Assembly (NCBI GenBank): GCA_012517735.1 | Contig: JAAYUK010000063.1 | Location: forward strand, 2,671 to 66,670 | DNA from: Nitrospiraceae bacterium | GTDB lineage: Bacteria > Nitrospirota > Thermodesulfovibrionia > Thermodesulfovibrionales > Dissulfurispiraceae | Reading direction: 5' to 3' | Length of the DNA: 64,000 nt | Part shown: positions 45,490 to 58,620 of the stretch, piece by piece | Position numbering within the stretch: position 1 is the first letter of the stretch | Layout of the letters: the number at the start of each line of letters is the position of its first letter | The notes under the pieces: generated by a model | The model's input: only the letters and a program-made list of their open reading frames with translations | Databases searched by the model: none | Told to the model about the DNA's origin: nothing | Position numbers and translations under genes: made by a program

Positions 45490-45870
45490 ATGAAAATCTG
45501 TTTCCCGGTTGAACAGTCAGAAGGCATGCAGAGCAAGGTGTACGGTCACTTCGGGTCAGCCCCGGTGTTTGTTGTGGTCGATACGGAAGTACAGTCGGTA
45601 ACCGAAATCGTCAATCGTGATCTCCACCATCAGCATGGCGCCTGCAGCCCGATCAAGGCGCTCGGCGGGGCTGCTGTCGACGCGATTGTTGTCGGCGGCA
45701 TCGGAGCCGGTGCATTGATGAAGTTGCAGGAGGCGGGCATGCAGGTATATCGGGCCGGTGCATACACGATTGCCGAGAATATGAATTTGATGCAAAGGGG
45801 CATGCTCCAGATTCTGCAGCCGCATCAGGTCTGCGGCGGCCATGCTCACGGCGGCGGCTGCTCCCACTGA
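45490..45870 (+). CDS. NifX/NifB-like (dinitrogenase FeMo-cofactor-binding fold, COG1433; orange-protein-like) protein with Cys/His tail
   Basis: MKICFPVEQSEGMQSKVYGHFGSAPVFVVVD..AIVVGGIGAGAL..AGMQVY.., tail CGGHAHGGGCSH. Paralog of 58192-58566. Confidence 0.85.
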   Translation: MKICFPVEQSEGMQSKVYGHFGSAPVFVVVDTEVQSVTEIVNRDLHHQHGACSPIKALGGAAVDAIVVGGIGAGALMKLQEAGMQVYRAGAYTIAENMNLMQRGMLQILQPHQVCGGHAHGGGCSH

Positions 45871-45953
45871 GGGTTTCGACAGCATGCAATTCTGTCTCCC
45901 CGTAGAGACGGATAACGGATTGCGTAGTCAGGTTCTTGGGCATAATTAAGATC

Positions 45954-46241
45954 ATGGGACGAACGAAGAAACCCAGAACCTGCGGCTGCCCGTTTGACGA
46001 GCTGAAATGCTGCATATTCAAACCGCGGGGCATCCCGATGCATTCGCTGCAGCGTACGGTCATCAGTCTGGATGAAATCGAGGCCCTTCGTCTGTGTGAC
46101 GGAGAAAGTCTGACGCAGGAGGAAGCCGGTACCCGCATGGGGATTTCCCGGGGGACGGTTCAGCGGTTGCTGGAGAGCGGCAGAAGAAAAACCATTTCAG
46201 CGCTCGTTGATGCAACGGCAATTATAATCGAAAAACCATAG
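45954..46241 (+). CDS. DUF134 (UPF0251) predicted DNA-binding protein
   Basis: ..FKPRGIPM..ISLDEIEALRLCDGESLTQEEAGTRMGISRGTVQRLL.. is a sigma-70 region-4-like HTH. Cys-rich N-terminus (CGC..CC). Confidence 0.8.
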   Translation: MGRTKKPRTCGCPFDELKCCIFKPRGIPMHSLQRTVISLDEIEALRLCDGESLTQEEAGTRMGISRGTVQRLLESGRRKTISALVDATAIIIEKP

Positions 46242-47163: not shown

Positions 47164-47207
47164 TCGCAGAACGGTGCGGTAAGCTTGGAGCAGAAAGGAG
47201 TATGCAC

Positions 47208-47555
47208 ATGCAGAAGTATGCGCTCTTTGTTTTCAATGGTGAGATGATGTGTTTTGTCCATGTCCTTCTGAACGCGATTCAGATGCATGAACGGGGGCTT
47301 GAAGCGCGCATTGTCATGGAAGGAGCATCGACCAGGCTTCTTCCGGAACTGGTGAAGCCTGACAATCCCCTTGCCGGGCTCTTTGCAAAGGCAAAAGAGC
47401 AGGGGCTTGTCGATGGCGTCTGCCGGGCGTGCTCGCAGAAGATGGGCACGCTGGCCGAAGCCGAAGCACAGGGGTTGCCGCTTCTTGATGATATGCAGGG
47501 ACATCCCGGCATGGCGGGCTACACTGCCCGGGGGTACACACTAATCACATTTTGA
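47208..47555 (+). CDS. DsrE/DsrF-like family protein (putative sulfur/selenium carrier)
   Basis: ..YALFVFNGEMMCFVHVLLNA..IVMEGASTRLLPEL..GVCRACSQKMG..GHPGMAGY... ATG at 47208 is 9 nt after AGGAG (alternative 47202). Confidence 0.55.
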   Translation: MQKYALFVFNGEMMCFVHVLLNAIQMHERGLEARIVMEGASTRLLPELVKPDNPLAGLFAKAKEQGLVDGVCRACSQKMGTLAEAEAQGLPLLDDMQGHPGMAGYTARGYTLITF

Positions 47556-47574
47556 GCCTGCAGAAGGAGGCGAT

Positions 47575-48099
47575 ATGACACGAAGAGACGAGAAAAGCTG
47601 GAGTCCCTATGTCGCAGGTGCCTTGACCGGCATTGTGCTGATCCTGTCGGTCTGGGTTGCGGACAAGTATGTCGGTGCCTCGACGACTTTTGTCCGCACT
47701 GCGGGCATGATCGAGCAGCAGTTTGCGCCGGACAAGGTGAAGACGATGGAGTATTTTATCAAGGAAAAACCGATAGTCGACTGGCAGACACTGTTTGTAG
47801 CCGGCATCTTTATCGGTTCACTCTTTGCAGCCGTCATGTTTAACGACTTCAAGAAACAGGCGGTCCCTCCCATGTGGGAAAAGCGCTTTGGCCCGAGTAT
47901 CCCCAAACGTGCGGTGTTTGCATTTCTCGGCGGCGCGGTTGCGATGTTTGGAGCGCGCCTTGCCGACGGCTGACCGAGCGGTCATGGGCTGAGCGGGTCG
48001 CTCCAGCTTGCGGTCAGCGGTTTCATAGCGCTGATCTGTTTCTTTGTCGGCGGCATGGTTTCCGCCCGTATCATGTACGGAGGAGGTAACCAGAAATGA
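47575..48099 (+). CDS. YeeE/YedE-family half-transporter with in-frame TGA (probable selenocysteine) at 47971-47973
   Basis: ..FLGGAVAMFGARLADG-[TGA]-PSGHGLSGS.. matches the family GGCxSGHG motif. Read-through ends at a TGA (48097-99) that overlaps the next gene's ATG. GAAGGAGG RBS. Confidence 0.7.
47988..48007 (+). promoter_or_regulatory. Candidate bacterial SECIS hairpin
   Basis: GCUGAGCG-GGU-CGCUC(C)AGC begins 14 nt after the UGA. G/U-containing apical loop with one bulged C. Confidence 0.5.
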
Positions 48100-48623
48100 G
48101 TCCTCTCCTGTATGGTTTGATCACCGGCATCGCATTTGGTTTTCTTTTGCAGAGAGGAGGAGTGCTTCGGTATGATCGCCAGATCGGCGCGCTCCGACTG
48201 ATGGATATGACCATTCTGAAATTCATGCTCAGCGCGATTCTTGTCGCCATGGTCGGCGTATATCTGCTCAAGGACATGGGGATCGTCAAGCTGAATCTCA
48301 AACCGACCATTATAGGCGCCCAGATACTCGGCGGACTGATTTTCGGCCTCGGATGGGGCGTGCTCGGCTATTGCCCCGGCACGCAGATGGGTGCTCTGGG
48401 GGAAGGACGCTGGGATGCCGTGTGGGGCATCATGGGCATGCTGCTTGGAGCAGCACTGTATGCGGAAGCATATCCGATCATGAAAACGACTGTTCTGACC
48501 TGGGGCGTTTACGGCAAAATCACCCTGCCGCAGGTTCTCGGGGTCAATCATTGGCTGGTTATTGTTCCGTTGGTATTCGGTGGTATCGGGTTGTTCTTAT
48601 GGTTTGAAAAAAAGGGACTGTAG
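48096..48623 (+). CDS. YeeE/YedE-family half-transporter (Cys form)
   Basis: ..GIAFGFLLQRGG..GGLIFGLGWGVLGYCPGT..; GGAGGAGG RBS. 175 aa. Confidence 0.8.
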   Translation: MSPLLYGLITGIAFGFLLQRGGVLRYDRQIGALRLMDMTILKFMLSAILVAMVGVYLLKDMGIVKLNLKPTIIGAQILGGLIFGLGWGVLGYCPGTQMGALGEGRWDAVWGIMGMLLGAALYAEAYPIMKTTVLTWGVYGKITLPQVLGVNHWLVIVPLVFGGIGLFLWFEKKGL

Positions 48624-48632
48624 TACATTGAG

Positions 48633-48667
48633 CAGCGTGGGGCGACTATTCTCCCCACGCTGTTTTT
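48633..48667 (+). terminator. Intrinsic terminator ending the YedE operon
   Basis: CAGCGTGGGG-10 nt-CCCCACGCTG followed by TTTTT. Confidence 0.85.
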
Positions 48668-50642: not shown

Positions 50643-51101
50643 ATGCCACGTCCCAAATGCCAGAGACAGATCGCCGGACTCCCTGCCTCTACCTACTTCA
50701 AGCCGCGGGGAATCCCGATGTCGGATCTCGAGGAAGTAATCCTGACGATCGATGAAGTGGAAGCGATACGCCTTGCCGATCACGAAGGGCTCTATCAGGA
50801 ACAGGCGGCCGAGTTCATGAAGATTTCCCGCCAGACGTTCGGGCGGGTAATCGCCTCTGCGCACCGGAAGATCGCCGATGCCCTGGTTACCGGTAAGGCA
50901 TTGCGGATTGAAGGCGGTGTTGTCAGTTTCGCGCAGGCGACAAAATACCGGTGCGCTTCCTGTGATGAAAAATGGTCGCCTCCGAGCGGCACGGGTGCGC
51001 CCGCAATCTGTCCGTCCTGCGGCAGCAGTGCTCTTGGCGCTCATGCAGACATCCATCACCGTCACAGAAAAGGCCGGGCCGGTAAGAACTCCCGGGGTTA
51101 A
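50643..51101 (+). CDS. DUF134 DNA-binding protein fused to a C-terminal CxxC..CxxC zinc ribbon
   Basis: MPRPKCQRQI..YFKPRGIPM..IDEVEAIRLADHEGLYQEQAAEFMKISRQTFGRV.., then ..YRCASCDEKW..ICPSCGS. Confidence 0.8.
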   Translation: MPRPKCQRQIAGLPASTYFKPRGIPMSDLEEVILTIDEVEAIRLADHEGLYQEQAAEFMKISRQTFGRVIASAHRKIADALVTGKALRIEGGVVSFAQATKYRCASCDEKWSPPSGTGAPAICPSCGSSALGAHADIHHRHRKGRAGKNSRG

Positions 51102-51340
51102 CCGCAGTGCGGTTCGGCGCAGGGCGTAGCACTGCCGCAACAGGTTGTCGCGCTCCCGCAGCGCGGCCGGGAAAGCCCCGCATCAGCAGACCCTTTCATG
51201 ATGAATCCGCTTCCTCCGGTAATAATCCGACGGCTCGGGGCAGCGCATTTCGGACACGGGCGGTCTTCCGTTTCCTGCATTGAGTGGATTACCTCAAACA
51301 GTTCTCCGCACGCATTGCAGCGGTAATCATATTTCGGCAT
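51098..51340 (-). CDS. FmdB-family zinc-ribbon protein
   Basis: MPKYDYRCNACGELFEVIHSM..RPCPKCAA.. with a Cys-rich tail. AGGAG RBS. Confidence 0.8.
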   Translation of the reverse strand: MPKYDYRCNACGELFEVIHSMQETEDRPCPKCAAPSRRIITGGSGFIMKGSADAGLSRPRCGSATTCCGSATPCAEPHCG

Positions 51341-51387
51341 GGCAACTCCTTTCTGGTGCGCCGCTCCGGATTTCACCGGACGGCGGA

Positions 51388-52361: not shown

Positions 52362-54059
52362 CTATTTTTCCCTCGGATACGGCCATGCCGCAATGCCGCC
52401 TTCCATTACCCTGACATTCTTCCACCCGTTCGCTTCAAGCACCAGTGCCGCTTCATAGCCGCGCAGGGAGATCTTGCAGAACGCGATGATTTCACGATCC
52501 TTGTCAGAAGGAAGTTCCGCCAGTCGTTTCCGGAGTGCTCCGAGCGGGATGAGTGTTTCGCCGGCGCCGATACGCATCTCTTCATATTCGTCAGGACCGC
52601 GGGCATCGAGCAGAAACGGTTTTTCGCCGCGGTCGAGTTTGGTCTTTACCTCTTCAGGGGTCAGCCCCTTCAGCCGCCCAAGCAGTTTGTTTTGCATGAG
52701 GTGGGCCGTCGCAATGCCGTGGTCGATTGCGAGCGAAAACGGTGGCGCATACGGAAGGTCGGCGTTTGCCATGTCGTCGACCGTCAGATTGCCGAGGATC
52801 GCCATTGCCCATTGCGCTATCTGCCGGTTCACATTGCCGGGCCCGGCACACTGGGCGCCGAGGATTCGTCCGGTTTTCCGGTCGGCAACCAGTTTGGTGA
52901 CAAGGAGCTTCCCCTTCATGAAACCGGGCAGGTCCGGGCTTGCGTTGATCACCGATACCGCATCGAATCCGTGCTCTCTGGCCGAGCGCTCCGAGAGGCC
53001 GGTTGCGCCGGCGGAAAAATCAAAGACTTTGCAGATGCCGGTCTGGATGGTTCCCGGAAAGGTCACCCGGTTGCCGAGCACGGCGTTTTCACCCGCAACG
53101 CGTCCTTCGAGATTGGCGAGATCGCCATAGGGGGCAAGCACTTTCTTCCCGGTGATCCGGTGCGTCAGCTCCACACAGTCGCCGACAGCGTAAATGTCGG
53201 GATCGGACGTCTGCATATACTGATCGACGACGATTCCTCCCGTATCTCCGATAGCGAGTCCTGCTTTTTTCGCCAGAACGGCATTGGGCGCAACGCCGAT
53301 GGCGACCACCGCAAGCTCGCAGGGCAGTTCAGTGCCGTTCTGCAGTTTGACGCCGGTCAGCACCCCATCGTTTCCCAGAAAAGCCGCGATACCGTTGCCG
53401 GTGATCACATTGACGCCTTTGCTCCTGACATGGTTTTCGACCAGTTTTGCGATGTCGAAGTCGAGAAAGGTCAACAGCTGGGGCAGCATCTCGATGACGG
53501 TGAGTTCCAGTCCGGCAAGTTGAAGGGCTTCACAGGTTTCGATGCCGATCAATCCCTCGCCGATAATGACCGCCTTTTTGATCGTGCCGCCATCCCGCAC
53601 GGCGCGCAAATAGTCCGCATCCTGCATGGACTGGAGGGTCGTGATGCCTTTCAGGTCGGCTCCTGGGACCGGCGGCCTCCGGGGGACCGATCCGGTCGCA
53701 AGAATCAGTTTGTCGTAGGTCAGTGAGCCGGTTTCCCCCGTGAGCAGATTGGTGAAGGAAACCCGTTTCTCTGCGCGTTCGATGCTGGTCACCTCCGTCG
53801 AGACGCGCGCATCGATCCCTTTTGCGTTCAGATAGAATTTGGGATCGCGCACTACCCCGGCAGGAGTGGCAAGCAGCTGGTTGCGGTCGTCGAAGAATCC
53901 GCCGACGTAATACGGATAGCCGCATGAGGCCATGGAGAGCTCCGGGCCCTTCTGGAGTAAAACAATCTCTGCGTGTTCATTGCAGCGTCGTGCCTTTGCC
54001 GCTGCCTTCGGTCCGGCCGCCGAGCCGCCGATAACGACAATACGCGTGGTTTGAGTCAT
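52362..54059 (-). CDS. CoA-disulfide reductase/NADH-oxidase-family flavoprotein with C-terminal rhodanese domain
   Basis: VVIGGSAAGPKAA (FAD), redox Cys in ..SMASCGYPYY.., second Rossmann motif IIGEGLIGIE, and rhodanese loop ..IAFCKISLRG. Confidence 0.85.
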   Translation of the reverse strand: MTQTTRIVVIGGSAAGPKAAAKARRCNEHAEIVLLQKGPELSMASCGYPYYVGGFFDDRNQLLATPAGVVRDPKFYLNAKGIDARVSTEVTSIERAEKRVSFTNLLTGETGSLTYDKLILATGSVPRRPPVPGADLKGITTLQSMQDADYLRAVRDGGTIKKAVIIGEGLIGIETCEALQLAGLELTVIEMLPQLLTFLDFDIAKLVENHVRSKGVNVITGNGIAAFLGNDGVLTGVKLQNGTELPCELAVVAIGVAPNAVLAKKAGLAIGDTGGIVVDQYMQTSDPDIYAVGDCVELTHRITGKKVLAPYGDLANLEGRVAGENAVLGNRVTFPGTIQTGICKVFDFSAGATGLSERSAREHGFDAVSVINASPDLPGFMKGKLLVTKLVADRKTGRILGAQCAGPGNVNRQIAQWAMAILGNLTVDDMANADLPYAPPFSLAIDHGIATAHLMQNKLLGRLKGLTPEEVKTKLDRGEKPFLLDARGPDEYEEMRIGAGETLIPLGALRKRLAELPSDKDREIIAFCKISLRGYEAALVLEANGWKNVRVMEGGIAAWPYPREK

Positions 54060-54322: not shown

Positions 54323-54412
54323 AAAAAAACGCATGGGCCCTGTCAGCAGAGGATAGCATGCAGACCGCGAGAAGTACGACCGACCCGCTGAACAGAACGG
54401 ACGGCCCATGCG
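54323..54412 (-). terminator. Long-stem terminator-like structure after the mrp/ORP-like operon
   Basis: Reverse strand has CGCATGGGCC, about 63 nt, GGCCCATGCG, then TTTTTTT. The interior can extend the stem (CTGTTCAGC/GCTGACAG). Confidence 0.5.
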
Positions 54413-54422
54413 CATCAGGGCG

Positions 54423-55262
54423 CTAAGCGATATTCCGGACAAGGGTATCGACCAACGCCGAGAAAGCCCTGCCCGAAGGGCTCTCCGCGGCATGCTGTAT
54501 CACCGGTTCCCCACTGTCGCCGGATGCGGCAACTGCGGCATCAAGCGGAATGCTTCCCAGAAACGGGATCTGCATCTCCGCTGCGAGGGCTTCGCCACCG
54601 CCTTTTTTGAAGATATTCACGACCGTCCCGCAGTGCGGACAGGCAAAACCGCTCATGTTTTCGACCAGTCCGATGATCGGAATGCCGACTTCCCGGCAGA
54701 AGGTGATCGATTTGCGCACATCCTCCAGCGCGACATCCTGGGGGGTTGTGACGATTATCGCCCCGTCGGGGTTCTTGAGCAGTTGAACGATTGAAATCGG
54801 TTCGTCGCCGGTGCCCGGGGGGCAATCGACAACGAGCCAGTCACGGGGTCCCCATGCAACATCGCCGAGGAACTGCTTGATGACCCCATGTTTCAGCGGA
54901 GCACGCCAGATGAGCGCATTGTTGCGGTCCTGCAGGAGAAATCCGACCGACATGACCGACAGCAGTCCGTCATACCCGACCGGAAGCAGGGATTCTCCAT
55001 CCTGCTCCGGCAGCATCCCTTCGAGTCCGAGAATTTTTGGGATACTCGGCCCATGAATATCGATATCGACCAGACCGGTCCTCAGGCCGCGCAGGGCGAG
55101 TCCGACGGCAATATTTGCGGCCACCGAGCTTTTGCCGACGCCTCCCTTGCCGGAAAGAACGAGTATTTTGTGGCGGATTTGCTCCATGCGGTGCTGCACC
55201 GCATTCTGCTCCTGTTCAATCCATTGTGTGTCATTGCTGCCGCACGCATGTGGTGTGCTCAT
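54423..55262 (-). CDS. mrp: Mrp/NBP35 (ApbC-type) Fe-S cluster carrier ATPase
   Basis: ..ILVLSGKGGVGKSSVAANIA..VDIDIHGPS..DCPPGTGDE..CPHCG... Start is uncertain (55262, 55295 or 55187). Confidence 0.85.
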   Translation of the reverse strand: MSTPHACGSNDTQWIEQEQNAVQHRMEQIRHKILVLSGKGGVGKSSVAANIAVGLALRGLRTGLVDIDIHGPSIPKILGLEGMLPEQDGESLLPVGYDGLLSVMSVGFLLQDRNNALIWRAPLKHGVIKQFLGDVAWGPRDWLVVDCPPGTGDEPISIVQLLKNPDGAIIVTTPQDVALEDVRKSITFCREVGIPIIGLVENMSGFACPHCGTVVNIFKKGGGEALAAEMQIPFLGSIPLDAAVAASGDSGEPVIQHAAESPSGRAFSALVDTLVRNIA

Positions 55263-56169
55263 GTCCGGTGTTCCTTTCTTGCTGTATGGTGTCAAAAAGT
55301 CTCAGAATATTCTTGGTAATTGTCCGCAATGCCTCCGCGGCCCGGCTTTCGGGATAGCAACGGGCCAGAGGAATCCCCTGCGCGATGGCGAGCGGGACGT
55401 GAATGTCATACGGGATTTCTCCGAGTACGGTGATTCCGCGTTCCGCCATGCGGGAACGGATGGTTTCAGCCCCCTCAGGATTGATATCCGCCTTGTTGAT
55501 GATTACGCCGGTCACCGGGTCAAAATATGCCGTCACTTCAAGCAGGCGCTCCAGATCGCTCAGCGCCGGCGCGGTCGGTTCCGTTATGGCCAGCACAGCG
55601 TCGCAGCCTTTCAGCGATGAGATAACCGGACAGCCGATGCCGGGCGGGCCGTCGATGATGAGATAGTCAGCCCGGTCATCCTGTGCGACGTTTCGTGCTT
55701 CATTTTTGACCAGATCCACAATCTTGCCGGAACTGCTCTGACCAACCGTCAACTCGCCCGAAACGAGATTGCGCACACCGTTCCGGAACAGATGCAGATA
55801 GCCGTTCTGCATGCGTTTTATGCTGACGGCGTGTTCCGGGCATTCGGCCACACACGCTCCGCAGGCTTCACAAAAGAGCGGCAGCATGACCGGTATCTTC
55901 TCATCCGGCAGCAGTGCGCCGAAACTGCACACCGCAGTGCAATCCATGCAGCCGATGCAACGGGTCTCGTCAATCACGGCTTTTTCGGATGCAAAAACCG
56001 GAGCGCTTTTTATCGGCTCAGCTCCGGTGATGATATGCAGATTCGGTGCGTCCACATCGGTATCGGCCAGTGTGATGATGAGGCCGGCAGGCAGGAGTTC
56101 CGCCAATGAGGCAGTGATGCTCGATTTGCCGACACCGCCTTTTCCGCTCAGGATGACCACTTCTTTCAT
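55231..56169 (-). CDS. MinD-superfamily P-loop ATPase with inserted 2x[4Fe-4S] ferredoxin domain (COG1149-like)
   Basis: MKEVVILSGKGGVGKSS.., CIGCMDCTAVC.., CEACGACVAECP. The ATG overlaps (ATGA) the upstream gene's stop. Confidence 0.85.
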   Translation of the reverse strand: MKEVVILSGKGGVGKSSITASLAELLPAGLIITLADTDVDAPNLHIITGAEPIKSAPVFASEKAVIDETRCIGCMDCTAVCSFGALLPDEKIPVMLPLFCEACGACVAECPEHAVSIKRMQNGYLHLFRNGVRNLVSGELTVGQSSSGKIVDLVKNEARNVAQDDRADYLIIDGPPGIGCPVISSLKGCDAVLAITEPTAPALSDLERLLEVTAYFDPVTGVIINKADINPEGAETIRSRMAERGITVLGEIPYDIHVPLAIAQGIPLARCYPESRAAEALRTITKNILRLFDTIQQERNTGHEHTTCVRQQ

Positions 56170-57101
56170 TTCAGCCACTCCCTTTCTATCCGCGCTGCCA
56201 AGTCGGTAAAGATGCGCGCTGCGGGCGAGTCAGGGTTCGTGCCGACAACGGGCAGTCCTTTCACATAGCTTTGCAGCAGGATACTGTCATGCGGAATTGA
56301 TGCAGCTACGGTAACATCCTTTGATGCAGCCTCCGGGGCAATCGTTGCCTGGCTGCCGCTCAGATTTGAGCGGTTCAGGATAATGCGGGCCGGTATTGCG
56401 AGCATTTCACAGAGATCGAGGATGAGACCGAGATCATGCATGCCGACACGGGTCGGTTCGGTGACCGCATACGCGCAGCCGGCGCCCGCGAGCGCCGCAA
56501 TAACGGTGCAATGTACCCCGGGGGCGGTATCGACGACTATGATGTCGAACCGGTCTGCTTCCGCCGCCAGGCGATCCTTGAGCGCCCGCACTATAATGGT
56601 GCTCTCCTCTCGTCCCGGGAGCAGCTCTCCGCTGAAAAGCGTAAGATTACCGGATTCTGTCCGGCAGGTAGCGCCGACGGACATCCAGCGGGTCAGCAGC
56701 GCTCCTGTCGGACAGGCGTTTATACAGGCTTTGCACCCATTGCATTCTCCCATCAATATCGGTGTCTGATCCGGCGGCAGAAAGAGCGCATTGCGGCGGC
56801 ATGCCGCAATGCAGTCCCCGCAGTGTGTGCAGAGCGATGGTTCCACGAGCGGCATGGCAACCTGGACATCGATATGGTCTTTGAGGGGAAGCGAGAGCAG
56901 AATGTGATTGTTCGGCGCTTCCGTATCCGCATCGACCAGTGCCACTGCATGTCCGCGGGCTGCCAGGGCAGCTGCAATATTGACGGCAACGGTTGATTTG
57001 CCGACACCACCTTTGCCACCCGTAACAGCAATAACCGGCGTTGCATACGGGTGATCGTGCAAGGCTTCCAGTTGCCGGGCGGTAAAGACCTCTGCAGTCA
57101 C
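56166..57101 (-). CDS. MinD-superfamily P-loop ATPase with inserted 2x[4Fe-4S] ferredoxin domain (second copy)
   Basis: ..VIAVTGGKGGVGKSTVA.., CTHCGDCIAAC.., CNGCKACINACP. GTG start overlaps the upstream stop (GTGA). Confidence 0.85.
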   Translation of the reverse strand: MTAEVFTARQLEALHDHPYATPVIAVTGGKGGVGKSTVAVNIAAALAARGHAVALVDADTEAPNNHILLSLPLKDHIDVQVAMPLVEPSLCTHCGDCIAACRRNALFLPPDQTPILMGECNGCKACINACPTGALLTRWMSVGATCRTESGNLTLFSGELLPGREESTIIVRALKDRLAAEADRFDIIVVDTAPGVHCTVIAALAGAGCAYAVTEPTRVGMHDLGLILDLCEMLAIPARIILNRSNLSGSQATIAPEAASKDVTVAASIPHDSILLQSYVKGLPVVGTNPDSPAARIFTDLAARIEREWLK

Positions 57102-57478
57102 GAGCGGCCTCGCCCGGCCGACCCTTTACGTGCCTGTGCCCCGGTGCTCCGCCGGAGCAGGCCGTCCGAATAGTTTTTCACGGCGGTTTTTACCTCCATG
57201 CCGGCGCTGAGCCCGTCGTAAATGGCAATGCCCGCCGCCTGCAGGGCTGCATATGCCTTGGGTCCGACGAACCCGGTAAGCACTGCGTTGACCCCTTTTT
57301 GTGCTACGCTCTGAGCGGCGGCTATGCCAGCGCCCTGCCCGGCGTCCATTGCCGGATTCGCAATCGTTTCGTGCTGCATGGTATCGGGATCCACGAGCAC
57401 GAAGAACGGCGCCCGGCCGAAGCGTTCATCAACGCGAGCATCCAGGCCGTGACCTGAAGCGGTTATGCAGATTTTCAT
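57098..57478 (-). CDS. NifX/NifB-like (COG1433, orange-protein-like) protein
   Basis: MKICITASGHGLDARVDERFGRAPFFVLVD..VLTGFVGPKAY..AGIAIY.., with a basic tail and no Cys/His tail. Confidence 0.85.
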   Translation of the reverse strand: MKICITASGHGLDARVDERFGRAPFFVLVDPDTMQHETIANPAMDAGQGAGIAAAQSVAQKGVNAVLTGFVGPKAYAALQAAGIAIYDGLSAGMEVKTAVKNYSDGLLRRSTGAQARKGSAGRGRS

Positions 57479-57508
57479 TCCATGACTCCCTTCATCGTTG
57501 CGTGCATC

Positions 57509-57772
57509 CTATTCGTTCTTGGTGAGTGCATCAAGGCGTTTCCGCACGTCTGTCAGCGCCCGTTCGAGGGCGGTAGCTTCCTCGGTAAGCCATGCACGTT
57601 CGTCGGAAGGATCCGTTGCACGCAGTCCCGGCTGGAAACGGGCTCCCAAGAACCGGCGCCCCATGCCACGTCCGCTAAACCCCTGACGCCGCATCCCGGC
57701 GCCGCACGGCCCCAAACCTCTGCCGGTACCCGGGCCGAACCCCTGAGGACCTGTCTGATTGAATCCCGGCAT
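57509..57772 (-). CDS. DUF5320 protein (Gly-rich N-terminus, coiled-coil C-terminus)
   Basis: MPGFNQTGPQGFGPGTGRGLGPCGAG..., then ..LTEEATALERALTDVRKRLDAL. AGGAGG RBS. Confidence 0.75.
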   Translation of the reverse strand: MPGFNQTGPQGFGPGTGRGLGPCGAGMRRQGFSGRGMGRRFLGARFQPGLRATDPSDERAWLTEEATALERALTDVRKRLDALTKNE

Positions 57773-57812
57773 GATCATCACCTCCTTTCTTTAATAGCAT
57801 ATGCCCATAATT

Positions 57813-58190
57813 TCAGTCCAAAAACTCTGCACACCCAGCGAGACGGGCAATTTCTTTGAGCATGCAGAGTCCGTTGGGAAGGCTGCATGCCCCGGTTTTT
57901 CGCTGTGCGGCTGGATGTTCCGGCTCGACGATATCTCCGAGCACACCATATATCGAGAGCATAAGAGCTCGCGCGCTCTCTCCGCCTGACCAGTTGGTCA
58001 CGCACGCTTCCGTCTCGATCAGTTTCTTTCGTGCGGCTTCCAAGGTCACTGCGAAGGATTTACAGTTTCTGCACAACTCATCCTTCTGCTGGTGGTGCAG
58101 CATACCGAACAGGCAATGCAGTGTCCGGACGCCGGCCTCGATCGTGTTTTCGGGACGGACTCTCGCGGTACTGTCAGTCGTATGCGCCAT
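57813..58190 (-). CDS. Cys-rich hypothetical protein
   Basis: 125 aa with 8 Cys (..LHCLFG..CRNC..EACV..GACSLPNGLCML..GCAEF). The ATG lies 1 nt after the upstream stop. No family was recognised. Confidence 0.5.
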   Translation of the reverse strand: MAHTTDSTARVRPENTIEAGVRTLHCLFGMLHHQQKDELCRNCKSFAVTLEAARKKLIETEACVTNWSGGESARALMLSIYGVLGDIVEPEHPAAQRKTGACSLPNGLCMLKEIARLAGCAEFLD

Positions 58191-58191
58191 G

Positions 58192-58566
58192 TCAGTGTTC
58201 ACATCCGCCCGCGTGTCCCGCGCAGGTGTCGGTCATGCCGAATATCGGCAGCATGCTTTTCTGGAACAGGGAGATATTTTCCTTCACGGTCGGCGCTTCG
58301 GCCCGGTAAATCCGGATGCCAGCCTGTGCAAGCCTGCTGAGCGCACCTGCCCCGATACCGCCGACAATGAGCGCATCGATCTCGGCGCCGCCAAGCTTCG
58401 CAAAGGGGTTGCACGTTCCGCCATGTTCGTGCAGCGCCTGATTCTGGATCGGCGTCAGCACATTCGTTTCCGTGTCATACACGGCAAACGTCTGCGAGGA
58501 CCCGAAATGGGGGTTAACCTCGCTCTCCAGCTCTTTGAACTCATGGATGGGAAAACAGATTTTCAT
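58192..58566 (-). CDS. NifX/NifB-like (COG1433, orange-protein-like) protein with Cys/His tail
   Basis: MKICFPIHEFKELESEVNPHFGSSQTFAVYD..LIVGGIGAGAL..AGIRIY.., tail CAGHAGGCEH. AAGGAGG RBS. Confidence 0.85.
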   Translation of the reverse strand: MKICFPIHEFKELESEVNPHFGSSQTFAVYDTETNVLTPIQNQALHEHGGTCNPFAKLGGAEIDALIVGGIGAGALSRLAQAGIRIYRAEAPTVKENISLFQKSMLPIFGMTDTCAGHAGGCEH

Positions 58567-58591
58567 GAGAACCTCCTTGGTGTTTGATGTT

Positions 58592-58620
58592 ATTTTATGA
58601 GCATATGCTCAAAAAGTCAA
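58592..58620 (-). promoter_or_regulatory. Sigma70 promoter with 14-bp palindromic operator for the ORP-like cluster
   Basis: Reverse strand: TTGACT (58620-15), 17-nt spacer containing TGAGCATATGCTCA (58598-58611), TAAAAT (58597-92). Confidence 0.7.

What the first reader, a model, noticed from the sequence alone, without database searches (positions are those of the whole stretch)
47575..48099. In-frame TGA at the conserved Cys of a YeeE/YedE half-transporter: probable selenocysteine with a SECIS-like hairpin
The ORF track ends this protein at 47973 (..FGARLADG*). The same frame continues as PSGHGLSGSLQLAVSGFIALICFFVGGMVSARIMYGGGNQK to a TGA at 48097-48099. That stop overlaps the ATG of the second half-transporter gene (ATGA). 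In the YeeE/YedE sulphur-transport family the motif is G-G-C-x-S-G-H-G, so the TGA sits exactly at the functional Cys column. The partner gene has the Cys form (LGYCPGT). Read-through gives 174 aa against 175 aa for the partner. Fourteen nt after the UGA there is a hairpin GCUGAGCG-GGU-CGCUC(C)AGC (47988-48007) with a G/U-containing apical loop, which is the geometry expected of a bacterial SECIS. A DsrE-like carrier gene lies immediately upstream. Automated callers will truncate this gene. I cannot say from memory whether Sec-containing YedE-like proteins are already catalogued.
Basis: partly seen in the sequence, partly recalled or inferred. Interest (0 to 1): 0.8.

Follow-up and report, generated by a model that had tools for sequence, protein, structure and literature searches.

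The report
Selenocysteine codon in a sulfur-transporter half-gene
The "stop" codon in the middle of this membrane-transporter gene is almost certainly read as the rare amino acid selenocysteine, which makes it a real but already catalogued kind of selenoprotein that automatic annotation cuts short.

Summary
The ORF at 47575-47973 ends at a TGA. The same frame runs 41 more codons to a TGA at 48097-48099, which overlaps the ATG of the partner gene. The read-through protein (174 aa) matches Pfam Sulf_transp (YeeE/YedE) across the TGA.

The TGA column aligns with Cys293 of the solved Spirochaeta thermophila YeeE. The partner's Cys aligns with Cys91.

Comparative evidence for selenocysteine is strong:
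- At least 117 species genomes carry TGA at this column, followed by a conserved in-frame tail. They are Desulfobacterota, Synergistota, Nitrospirota and Negativicutes.
- Variation in that tail has coding periodicity.
- A hairpin at 47986-48009 meets the published bacterial SECIS criteria and shows compensatory changes (pair 18-37: GC 75, AU 18, CG 6, UA 3).
- The hairpin is largely absent from Cys-form homologues that encode the same peptide.
- TGA is the ordinary stop for 22 of 35 window genes, so the recoding is local.

The selenocysteine machinery could not be checked, because only this window was available, not the rest of the genome.

The family is already listed as a selenoprotein (YeeE/YedE thiosulfate transporter family, motif GUxSG). 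This is therefore a new, mis-annotated member of a known kind.

Two close relatives have TGC (Cys) with the hairpin still intact.

The parts
47575..48099 (+). Full gene for the C-terminal-half-type (PmpA-like) YeeE/YedE half-transporter. It encodes 174 aa, with selenocysteine at residue 133.
   Evidence: Translation. Pfam PF04143 scores 91.6 bits over residues 6-162, so the match spans the TGA. The protein aligns to StYeeE residues 230-328.
47566..47570 (+). Shine-Dalgarno-like GGAGG, 4 nt before the ATG at 47575.
   Evidence: Read directly from the sequence.
47971..47973 (+). In-frame TGA, read as selenocysteine (motif G-U-P-S-G).
   Evidence: It aligns with Cys in most homologues and with Cys293 of StYeeE. 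TGA sits at the same column in 117 species genomes. It is also TGA in 8 of 8 independent contigs of this same species that were read.
47986..48009 (+). SECIS-type hairpin. The 5' arm is 47986-47995. The apical loop GGU is 47996-47998. The 3' arm is 47999-48002 plus 48004-48009, with 48003 unpaired.
   Evidence: Folding gives -11.6 kcal/mol. 87% of cells are paired, against 27-48% when the partners are slid. Both-side changes occur in 36 cells, against 6.2 in shuffles (0 of 500 shuffles reach the observed value). The hairpin is stronger in Sec forms than in Cys forms.
47974..48096 (+). 41 codons translated only if the TGA is recoded. They carry the conserved PSGHG motif and the last transmembrane segment.
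   Evidence: Conserved in frame in relatives. Diversity at codon positions 1/2/3 is 0.24/0.10/0.52.
48096..48623 (+). Partner gene: the N-terminal-half-type (PmpB-like) YeeE/YedE half-transporter. It has Cys (LGYCPGT) and is translationally coupled through the ATGA overlap.
   Evidence: Pfam PF04143 and DUF6691. It aligns to StYeeE residues 4-119, with its Cys at Cys91. A partner is present next to the TGA gene in 114 of 117 loci.
48630..48667 (+). Strong hairpin followed by UUUUU, directly after the partner gene. It is probably the intrinsic terminator of the two-gene unit.
   Evidence: Folding gives -25.8 kcal/mol with a z-score of -7.0. The simple terminator scan missed it.
47202..47555 (+). 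Small upstream gene for a divergent DsrE-family-like protein with a CxxC motif (VCRAC).
   Evidence: The direct Pfam DsrE match has E = 0.079. Homologues carry PF02635, and one is named 'DsrE family protein'. It neighbours the TGA gene in only 4 of 117 loci.

Best explanation
Genes 47575-48099 and 48096-48623 encode the two halves of a YeeE/YedE-type membrane transporter.

- The first gene corresponds to the C-terminal half (PmpA-like) and the second to the N-terminal half (PmpB-like).
- They are expected to pair as a heterodimer that rebuilds the hourglass pore of full-length YeeE. The pairing is inferred, not shown.
- The UGA at 47971-47973 is not a stop. A stem-loop 12-14 nt downstream, with apical loop GGU starting 22 nt after the UGA, acts as a bacterial SECIS.
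- The SECIS recruits SelB carrying Sec-tRNA(Sec). Selenocysteine is inserted, and translation continues through the last 41 codons.
- The selenocysteine occupies the position of Cys293 of S. thermophila YeeE. This is the outermost of the cysteines that line the pore, and the one that contacts thiosulfate.
- The partner half supplies the equivalent of Cys91.
- The likely consequence is a more reactive, mostly deprotonated selenolate at the entry site. It would capture a sulfur oxyanion or sulfane-sulfur species, or possibly a selenium species.

Shown here: the recoding signature, the SECIS structure and the homology. Inferred: the Sec insertion itself, the heterodimer and the substrate.
For: - The Pfam Sulf_transp match spans the TGA.
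- The Sec column equals StYeeE Cys293 and the partner Cys equals Cys91. The roles of these cysteines are taken from PMC11073785. The PmpA/PmpB half-size logic is taken from PMC11582611.
Of these, 117 are true homologues with a tail of about 41 codons. In about 100 of them the tail ends in an ATGA overlap.
- Relatives at 88% and about 80% nucleotide identity keep the TGA and the tail.
- Codon-position diversity after the TGA is 0.29/0.12/0.61. Upstream it is 0.29/0.24/0.58.
- The hairpin meets the four bSECIS constraints quoted in PMC13188914: a 3-nt loop starting GG, a 9-10 bp stem, 22-nt spacing and -11.6 kcal/mol.
- Covariation: pair 18-37 is GC 75, AU 18, CG 6, UA 3, and pair 19-36 is CG 99, UA 9.
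- Hairpin energy is -11.5 kcal/mol in Sec forms (n = 115) against -5.3 in Cys forms (n = 108). Within the identical peptide context PSGHGLSGSLQLA it is -11.3 against -6.45, p = 1.6e-6.
- TGA is the normal stop of 22 of 35 window genes.
- The exact truncated product is recorded on 124 contigs and in 157 index blocks from independent samples. This rules out a sequencing error.
- TGA forms occur in phyla known to be selenoprotein-rich: Deltaproteobacteria, Synergistetes and Firmicutes (PMC5029168).
- The family is already listed as a selenoprotein with motif GUxSG (PMC13188914).
Against: - No selA, selB, selD or tRNA-Sec was found in the 64-kb window, nor in 1.76 Mb of related loci. The rest of the genome could not be examined.
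- The selD check was weak. selA and selB were looked for only through Pfam scans of some window ORFs.
- No other selenoprotein gene was found in the window.
- The hairpin is not significant against shuffles of this single sequence.
- No Rfam model matches it.
- There is no protein-level evidence.
- A strain 99.89% identical to the window has TGC instead. Cys is therefore evidently tolerated.
Confidence: 0.88

Rival explanations
1. The TGA is a genuine stop. The gene is truncated (a pseudogene or nonsense allele), or it makes a 132-aa product, and the downstream 41 codons are untranslated.
For: Gene callers and GenBank treat it this way. The sources hold a 132-aa 'hypothetical protein'. A near-identical strain has a sense codon (TGC) at this position.
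Against: The same TGA is kept in 117 species, with an open and conserved tail that shows coding periodicity. The tail carries the family's PSGHG motif and its last helix, both of which the Pfam and PDB alignments require. The tail usually ends in an ATGA overlap with the partner gene. The TGA allele dominates in this species: 124 contigs against 3.
Confidence: 0.04
2. The UGA is read through, but not as selenocysteine. Possible routes are near-cognate Trp or Cys insertion, or a lineage-wide reassignment of TGA.
For: The Sec machinery was not demonstrated for this genome.
Against: TGA terminates 22 of 35 genes in the window, including this gene itself. The TGA sits exactly on a catalytic Cys column. 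It is followed by a hairpin with bSECIS geometry and a G-rich apical loop. That hairpin covaries and is specific to the TGA forms. TGA forms are confined to Sec-rich phyla (PMC5029168).
Confidence: 0.05
3. The hairpin is not a SECIS. It is either a by-product of the conserved peptide GLSGSLQL, or a structure with another role, such as pausing translation during membrane insertion.
For: The peptide is highly conserved, so much of the sequence is fixed anyway. Two Cys variants keep the hairpin. A few other Cys forms fold to about -10 to -12 kcal/mol.
Against: With the identical peptide, Cys forms fold much less well (-6.45 against -11.3 kcal/mol, p = 1.6e-6). That Cys set even includes the recent converts. 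Compensatory changes occur at synonymous sites, and even across an amino-acid change (GGC...GUA). The two Cys variants that keep the hairpin are very recent derivatives of TGA lineages.
Confidence: 0.03

Closest known systems
[quoted passage not shown] Listed in PMC13188914, which cites Zhang & Gladyshev 2008 and Peng et al. 2016, and in PMC9312934.
   Same: Same Pfam family. Same motif (G-U-P-S-G). Same kinds of host: TGA forms were found here in Geobacter and Trichlorobacter loci, among others.
   Different: I could not align the window protein directly to WP_012471001.1. The catalogue entry is a computational prediction only. The reviews do not give the mapping to Cys293, the half-transporter architecture or SECIS covariation.
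PmpA/PmpB half-size YeeE-family proteins (Serratia sp. ATCC 39006; analysed in PMC11582611).
   Same: Two adjacent genes, one matching the C-terminal half and one the N-terminal half of full-length YeeE. Each has one conserved Cys, at the Cys293 and Cys91 positions respectively. A heterodimer has been proposed for them.
   Different: The halves here are about 175 aa rather than about 130 aa. The PmpA-type half has Sec instead of Cys. Homology to Serratia PmpAB itself was not tested.
Spirochaeta thermophila YeeE (TsuA), PDB 6LEO, 6LEP, 8J4C and 8K1R, with YeeD (TsuB).
   Same: Detectable sequence homology in both halves (E about 1e-5 to 1e-6). The pore cysteines align.
   Different: StYeeE is a single chain with nine helices and three Cys. 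No equivalent of Cys22 is seen in the partner here, and no YeeD/TusA-like gene lies next to the pair. NCBIfam TsuA scores fall far below the cut-offs: 52 against 400, and 35 against 645.
YedE/FdhT selenium-metabolism membrane protein (NF033796, TIGR04112).
   Same: Same superfamily, and a link to selenium.
   Different: Scores fall far below the cut-offs: 35.6 against 350, and 33 against 200. YedE is thought to transport selenium. It is not itself known as the Sec-containing form.
E. coli fdhF-type bacterial SECIS, and the general bSECIS model (PMC13188914, Fig. 2 legend).
   Same: A stem-loop inside the coding region just after the UGA. G in the first loop positions. UGA-to-loop spacing within 16-37 nt. 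A small apical loop and one unpaired base in the stem.
   Different: No sequence similarity is claimed. SelB binding was not tested. A subgroup (Syntrophaceae, Smithella) uses a shifted inner helix with the 6-nt loop GGUCUG.

Membership tests
YeeE/YedE (Pfam PF04143 Sulf_transp) | Profile match above the gathering score. | tested here: met
   91.6 bits against a cut-off of 27, over residues 6-162 of the read-through protein. The partner scores 53.7 bits.
YeeE/YedE (Pfam PF04143 Sulf_transp) | A conserved pore cysteine in the G-x-C-x-x-G motif. | tested here: met
   The TGA column aligns with Cys293 of StYeeE, and the partner Cys aligns with Cys91. The residue here is Sec rather than Cys.
Half-size PmpA/PmpB-type pair | Two adjacent genes that match the C-terminal and N-terminal halves of full-length YeeE. 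| tested here: met
   Gene 1 aligns to StYeeE 230-328 and gene 2 to 4-119. A partner is adjacent in 114 of 117 loci. Formation of a heterodimer was not tested.
Thiosulfate transporter TsuA (NCBIfam NF052577, NF041049) | Score above the equivalog cut-off. | tested here: not met
   52.4 against 400, and 34.6 against 645.
YedE/FdhT selenium metabolism protein (NF033796, TIGR04112) | Score above the curated cut-off. | tested here: not met
   35.6 against 350. The partner scores 33.1 against 200.
Bacterial selenoprotein gene | An in-frame UGA at a column occupied by Cys in homologues. | tested here: met
Bacterial selenoprotein gene | Protein-coding conservation downstream of the UGA. | tested here: met
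Bacterial selenoprotein gene | [quoted passage not shown] | tested here: met
   Loop GGU, 9-10 bp stem, 22-nt spacing, -11.6 kcal/mol. The criteria are taken from PMC13188914.
Bacterial selenoprotein gene | The structure is supported by covariation and is specific to the UGA forms. | tested here: met
Bacterial selenoprotein gene | selA, selB, selC (tRNA-Sec) and selD are present in the genome. | not testable with these tools
   Only the 64-kb window is available. ARAGORN found no tRNA-Sec. Pfam scans of some window ORFs showed no sel gene.
Bacterial selenoprotein gene | Selenium is incorporated into the protein (75Se labelling or mass spectrometry). | not testable with these tools
   This needs an experiment.
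Catalogued YeeE/YedE selenoprotein family (GUxSG) | The motif G-U-x-S-G in a PF04143 protein. | tested here: met
   The sequence is ...LADG-U-PSGHG. The motif is taken from PMC13188914.
Catalogued YeeE/YedE selenoprotein family (GUxSG) | Direct homology to the reference protein WP_012471001.1. | not tested
DsrE/DsrF-like family (upstream gene 47202-47555) | Pfam PF02635 match above the cut-off. | tested here: inconclusive
   13.6 bits against a cut-off of 22.7, E = 0.079. Close homologues carry PF02635.

The most novel reading that the evidence does not exclude
Selenocysteine at the outermost pore position (the Cys293 equivalent) changes how the transporter works. Full-length YeeE passes thiosulfate along a hydrogen-bond relay. 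Here the selenolate would instead form a transient covalent Se-S (or Se-Se) bond with the cargo. This would make the pair a catalytic group-translocating importer for sulfane sulfur, polysulfide or selenium species. Sec-to-Cys switching seen at strain level (TGC variants that still carry a fossil SECIS) would then reflect selenium availability.
Probability: 0.15. Interest if true: 0.65.

Novelty: new member of a known kind. Interest (0 to 1): 0.35.

Why it matters
- **Annotation.** The sources hold this gene only as a 132-aa hypothetical protein. The same error will recur in well over a hundred species genomes. Anyone inferring sulfur or selenium transport from MAGs of Desulfobacterota, Synergistota or Nitrospirota will miss or mis-score the transporter.
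- **Biology.** Transporters with selenocysteine in the translocation pathway have only been predicted, never studied. This study adds four things:
  - a placement of the Sec on the outermost, thiosulfate-contacting cysteine of the solved YeeE structure;
  - a SECIS supported by covariation;
  - natural Sec and Cys variants of the same gene, ready for comparative experiments;
  - the observation that the SECIS constrains the encoded peptide.

None of this overturns current understanding.

Tried and rejected
- **Rfam.** The gathering-score scan of the whole window found only two tRNAs. The permissive scan of 47900-48120 gave only chance-level hits. Rfam has no usable bacterial SECIS model.
- **Single-sequence folding.** It is not informative in this GC-rich coding region.
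- **Other selenoprotein genes or sel genes in the window.**
  - I screened all ORF pairs split by a single TGA and checked the plausible ones with Pfam.
  - They turned out to be separate adjacent genes: a phosphonate-binding protein and a histidine kinase, and a GGDEF protein and Ppnp. The rest were shadow ORFs.
- **tRNA-Sec and SelD.** ARAGORN for tRNA-Sec and tblastn for SelD found nothing in any held locus.
- **Conserved neighbourhood.** Only the partner half is conserved. The DsrE-like gene is not: it occurs in 4 of 117 loci. A CoA-disulfide-reductase plus rhodanese gene recurs in a minority of loci.
- **Sequencing error or nonsense allele.** Rejected, because the TGA is present in 8 of 8 independent contigs of the species that were read, and the truncated product is recorded on 124 contigs.
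- **Primary papers.** The papers cited for the family (PMC2398784, PMC5029168) do not name YeeE/YedE in their main text. PMC12013261 is not held.
- **Chance hits.** Two pattern hits in Cellulomonas were chance matches and were excluded.

Full report
**Observation.**
- An ORF starts at ATG 47575, with GGAGG at 47566-47570.
- The ORF reaches a TGA at 47971-47973 after ...FGARLADG.
- The same frame stays open for 41 more codons (PSGHGLSGSLQLAVSGFIALICFFVGGMVSARIMYGGGNQK), to a TGA at 48097-48099.
- That second TGA overlaps the ATG at 48096 of a 175-aa gene (48096-48623), which contains LGYCPGT.
- The read-through product is 174 aa.
- A hairpin lies 14 nt after the first TGA and folds at -11.6 kcal/mol.
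- On this sequence alone the hairpin is not exceptional. Its z-score is -1.08, and 28 of 200 shuffles fold at least as well. The 60-nt context has a z-score of +0.28. The case therefore rests on comparison with relatives.

**What the proteins are.**
- With Cys placed at the TGA, the first protein matches Pfam Sulf_transp (PF04143) at 91.6 bits over residues 6-162, so the match runs across the TGA.
- The second protein matches the same family and DUF6691.
- Neither reaches the NCBIfam cut-offs for TsuA or for YedE/FdhT. They belong to the superfamily but are not equivalogs of the characterised transporters.
- Against solved structures, the first protein aligns to residues 230-328 of Spirochaeta thermophila YeeE, with the TGA column on Cys293.
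- The second protein aligns to residues 4-119 of the same structure, with its Cys on Cys91.
- Cys293, Cys91 and Cys22 line the pore of StYeeE perpendicular to the membrane and are functionally important. PMC11073785 numbers Cys293 as the first of these cysteines.
- PMC11582611 shows that half-size PmpA and PmpB proteins correspond to the C-terminal and N-terminal halves of YeeE, carrying the Cys293 and Cys91 equivalents respectively. It proposes that they form a heterodimer.
- The window pair has that architecture, with selenocysteine proposed at the Cys293 position.
- A strong hairpin followed by a U-run right after the second gene (-25.8 kcal/mol, z -7.0) suggests that the transcription unit ends there.

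**Is the TGA conserved?**
- A protein search returned thousands of homologues. Most are 170-177 aa and carry LADGCPSGHG. Several stop at exactly 132 aa.
- DNA of relatives at 88% and about 80% nucleotide identity shows TGA at the same codon. It also shows a conserved in-frame tail and the ATGA overlap.
- Two of these (Cellulomonas) are chance matches. The other 117 have a tail of about 41 codons of conserved sequence, ending in ATGA in about 100 cases.
- The hosts are Desulfobacterota, Synergistota, Nitrospirota and Negativicutes. The Desulfobacterota include Syntrophorhabdus aromaticivorans UI, Malonomonas rubra DSM 5091, Geobacter, Trichlorobacter, Syntrophaceae and Smithella.
- Peng et al. 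describe Deltaproteobacteria, Synergistetes and Firmicutes as selenoprotein-rich (PMC5029168).
- Diversity at codon positions 1/2/3 after the TGA, past the hairpin, is 0.29/0.12/0.61. Upstream it is 0.29/0.24/0.58. The tail is therefore translated and under purifying selection.
- TGA is the ordinary stop codon of 22 of 35 confident genes in the window. The recoding is local, not a change of genetic code.

**The hairpin.** I aligned 112 distinct TGA-form sequences and counted pairs for a stem of columns 16-25 with 29-32 and 34-39, which is window 47986-48009.
- 87% of cells are paired, against 27-48% when the partners are slid by 1-3 columns.
- 36 cells have changes on both sides, against 6.2 in shuffles. 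None of 500 shuffles reaches the observed value.
- Pair 18-37 is GC 75, AU 18, CG 6, UA 3. Pair 19-36 is CG 99, UA 9.
- These compensations fall on synonymous positions (Gly GGN with Leu CUN or UUA; Leu CUG or UUG with Gln CAG or CAA). In one class they span an amino-acid change.
- A subgroup (Syntrophaceae, Smithella; peptide SGLAQV) keeps the outer helix but shifts the inner helix, giving the 6-nt loop GGUCUG.
- The window hairpin meets the four constraints of the published bacterial SECIS model (PMC13188914): a 3-nt loop starting GG, a 9-10 bp stem, 22 nt between the UGA and the loop, and an MFE below -7.5 kcal/mol.
- As a control, I collected Cys-form genes with the same pattern but TGY in place of TGA.
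  - Over the same 27 nt the mean MFE is -11.5 kcal/mol for Sec forms (n = 115) and -5.3 for Cys forms (n = 108).
  - Restricted to genes that encode the identical peptide PSGHGLSGSLQLA, it is -11.3 against -6.45 (p = 1.6e-6).
- The structure is therefore selected for together with the TGA, and is not a by-product of the peptide.
- The peptide itself differs between the two sets: SGSLQLA dominates in Sec forms and SGMMQLS in Cys forms. This suggests that the SECIS constrains the protein sequence.

**Source and population data.**
- Exact look-ups identify the window as a 'Nitrospiraceae bacterium' MAG. The neighbouring proteins are NLI29014, NLI29023, NLI29025 and NLI29026.
- The nearest species-level genomes are Nitrospirae/Nitrospiraceae MAGs at 75-78% nucleotide identity.
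- The gene itself appears in the sources only as a 132-aa hypothetical protein.
- That truncated product is recorded on 124 contigs and in 157 index blocks from many samples. All eight contigs that were read have TGA and an identical hairpin. A sequencing error or a private nonsense mutation is excluded.
- One strain (L001, L002) is 99.89% identical to the window over 10.8 kb but has TGC at this codon.
- A sister species (L246-L248) also has TGC. Both keep the hairpin.
- Every outgroup examined (L003-L006, L072, L075) has TGA. These are therefore most simply recent Sec-to-Cys conversions that carry a fossil SECIS.

**What could not be shown.**
- The window has no tRNA-Sec.
- I found no sel genes and no second selenoprotein gene among the candidates I checked.
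- The substrate is unknown.
  - The only conserved neighbour is the partner half.
  - The DsrE-like gene upstream is adjacent in only 4 of 117 loci.
  - Its own DsrE assignment is weak.

**Comparison with what is known.**
[quoted passage not shown] They give the motif GUxSG and the example WP_012471001.1 (PMC13188914, PMC9312934). This is the motif found here (G-U-P-S-G).
- The kind is therefore known. This instance is an unannotated member.
- As far as the papers I could read show, this analysis adds five things:
  - the placement of Sec on the Cys293 position of the solved structure, within a PmpA/PmpB-type split transporter;
  - a SECIS model supported by covariation;
  - the breadth of the TGA form, at 117 or more species;
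  - evidence that the SECIS shapes the peptide;
  - strain-level Sec/Cys variants.

**Verdict.** The finding is a new member of a known kind, of modest interest (0.35).

Noticed in passing
L001 10001-10525 and L002 588-1112 (equivalent to window 47575-48099): A strain 99.89% identical to the window over 10.8 kb (12 mismatches) has TGC (Cys) in place of the TGA. Its hairpin is unchanged. This is a within-species Sec/Cys polymorphism.
   Followed up: yes
L246 6001-6525, L247 and L248: A sister species has TGC at the same codon. It shares the gene order and is about 84% identical in nucleotides in the flanks. It keeps a -12.7 kcal/mol hairpin. This is a second, independent 'fossil SECIS'.
   Followed up: partly
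window 47971-48099: Public sources hold this gene only as a 132-aa 'hypothetical protein'. The flanking genes are NLI29023 and NLI29025. The same truncation is expected in the 117 or more other genomes.
   Followed up: partly
window 52362-54059 (- strand): A homologue of this CoA-disulfide-reductase-like gene with a rhodanese domain lies within the 8-kb loci of 26 of 117 TGA-form pairs. The figure for Cys-form pairs is 9 of 120. This may be a functional link to persulfide or polysulfide chemistry.
   Followed up: partly
window 47202-47555: This small DsrE-like protein has a CxxC motif (VCRAC). A 'DsrE-like protein, UxxC' is itself a catalogued selenoprotein family, so this may be its Cys form. 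I did not check whether relatives carry TGA there.
   Followed up: partly
window 51098-51376 (- strand): An FmdB-family zinc-ribbon protein with CxxC motifs. The reviews list FmdB-family proteins with UxxU as selenoproteins. The protein here is the Cys form.
   Followed up: no
A1 alignment columns 18-37; for example L014, L068, L078, L081 and L097: In the Syntrophaceae/Smithella subgroup the peptide is SGLAQV. The hairpin there uses a shifted inner helix with the 6-nt loop GGUCUG and no bulge, while the outer helix is retained.
   Followed up: partly
Sec-form loci L007-L125 compared with Cys-form loci L126-L245: The peptide just after the Sec/Cys column differs systematically between the two sets. 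SGSLQLA occurs in 85 of 122 Sec forms. SGMMQLS occurs in 41 of 119 Cys forms. This is consistent with the SECIS constraining the amino-acid sequence. The two sets come from different collections, so the comparison may be confounded.
   Followed up: partly
window 45490-46241, 50643-51101 and 54400-58600: The surroundings hold repeated DUF134 regulators and Nitro_FeMo-Co (NifB/NifX-like) domain genes. They also hold ParA/NifH-like Fe-S ATPases, MoeA and MoaE. This is a metal-cofactor and Fe-S neighbourhood, syntenic with L005. Its relation to the transporter is unknown.
   Followed up: no
window 48630-48667: A very stable hairpin (-25.8 kcal/mol, z -7.0) followed by UUUUU, just after the partner gene. 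The simple terminator scan missed it, probably because of its long loop.
   Followed up: yes
L060 2779-2832 (- strand) and downstream: In one MAG the frame after the TGA runs on for 233 codons instead of about 41. The stop and the overlap with the partner gene are lost. This may be a frameshift, a gene fusion or an assembly error.
   Followed up: no
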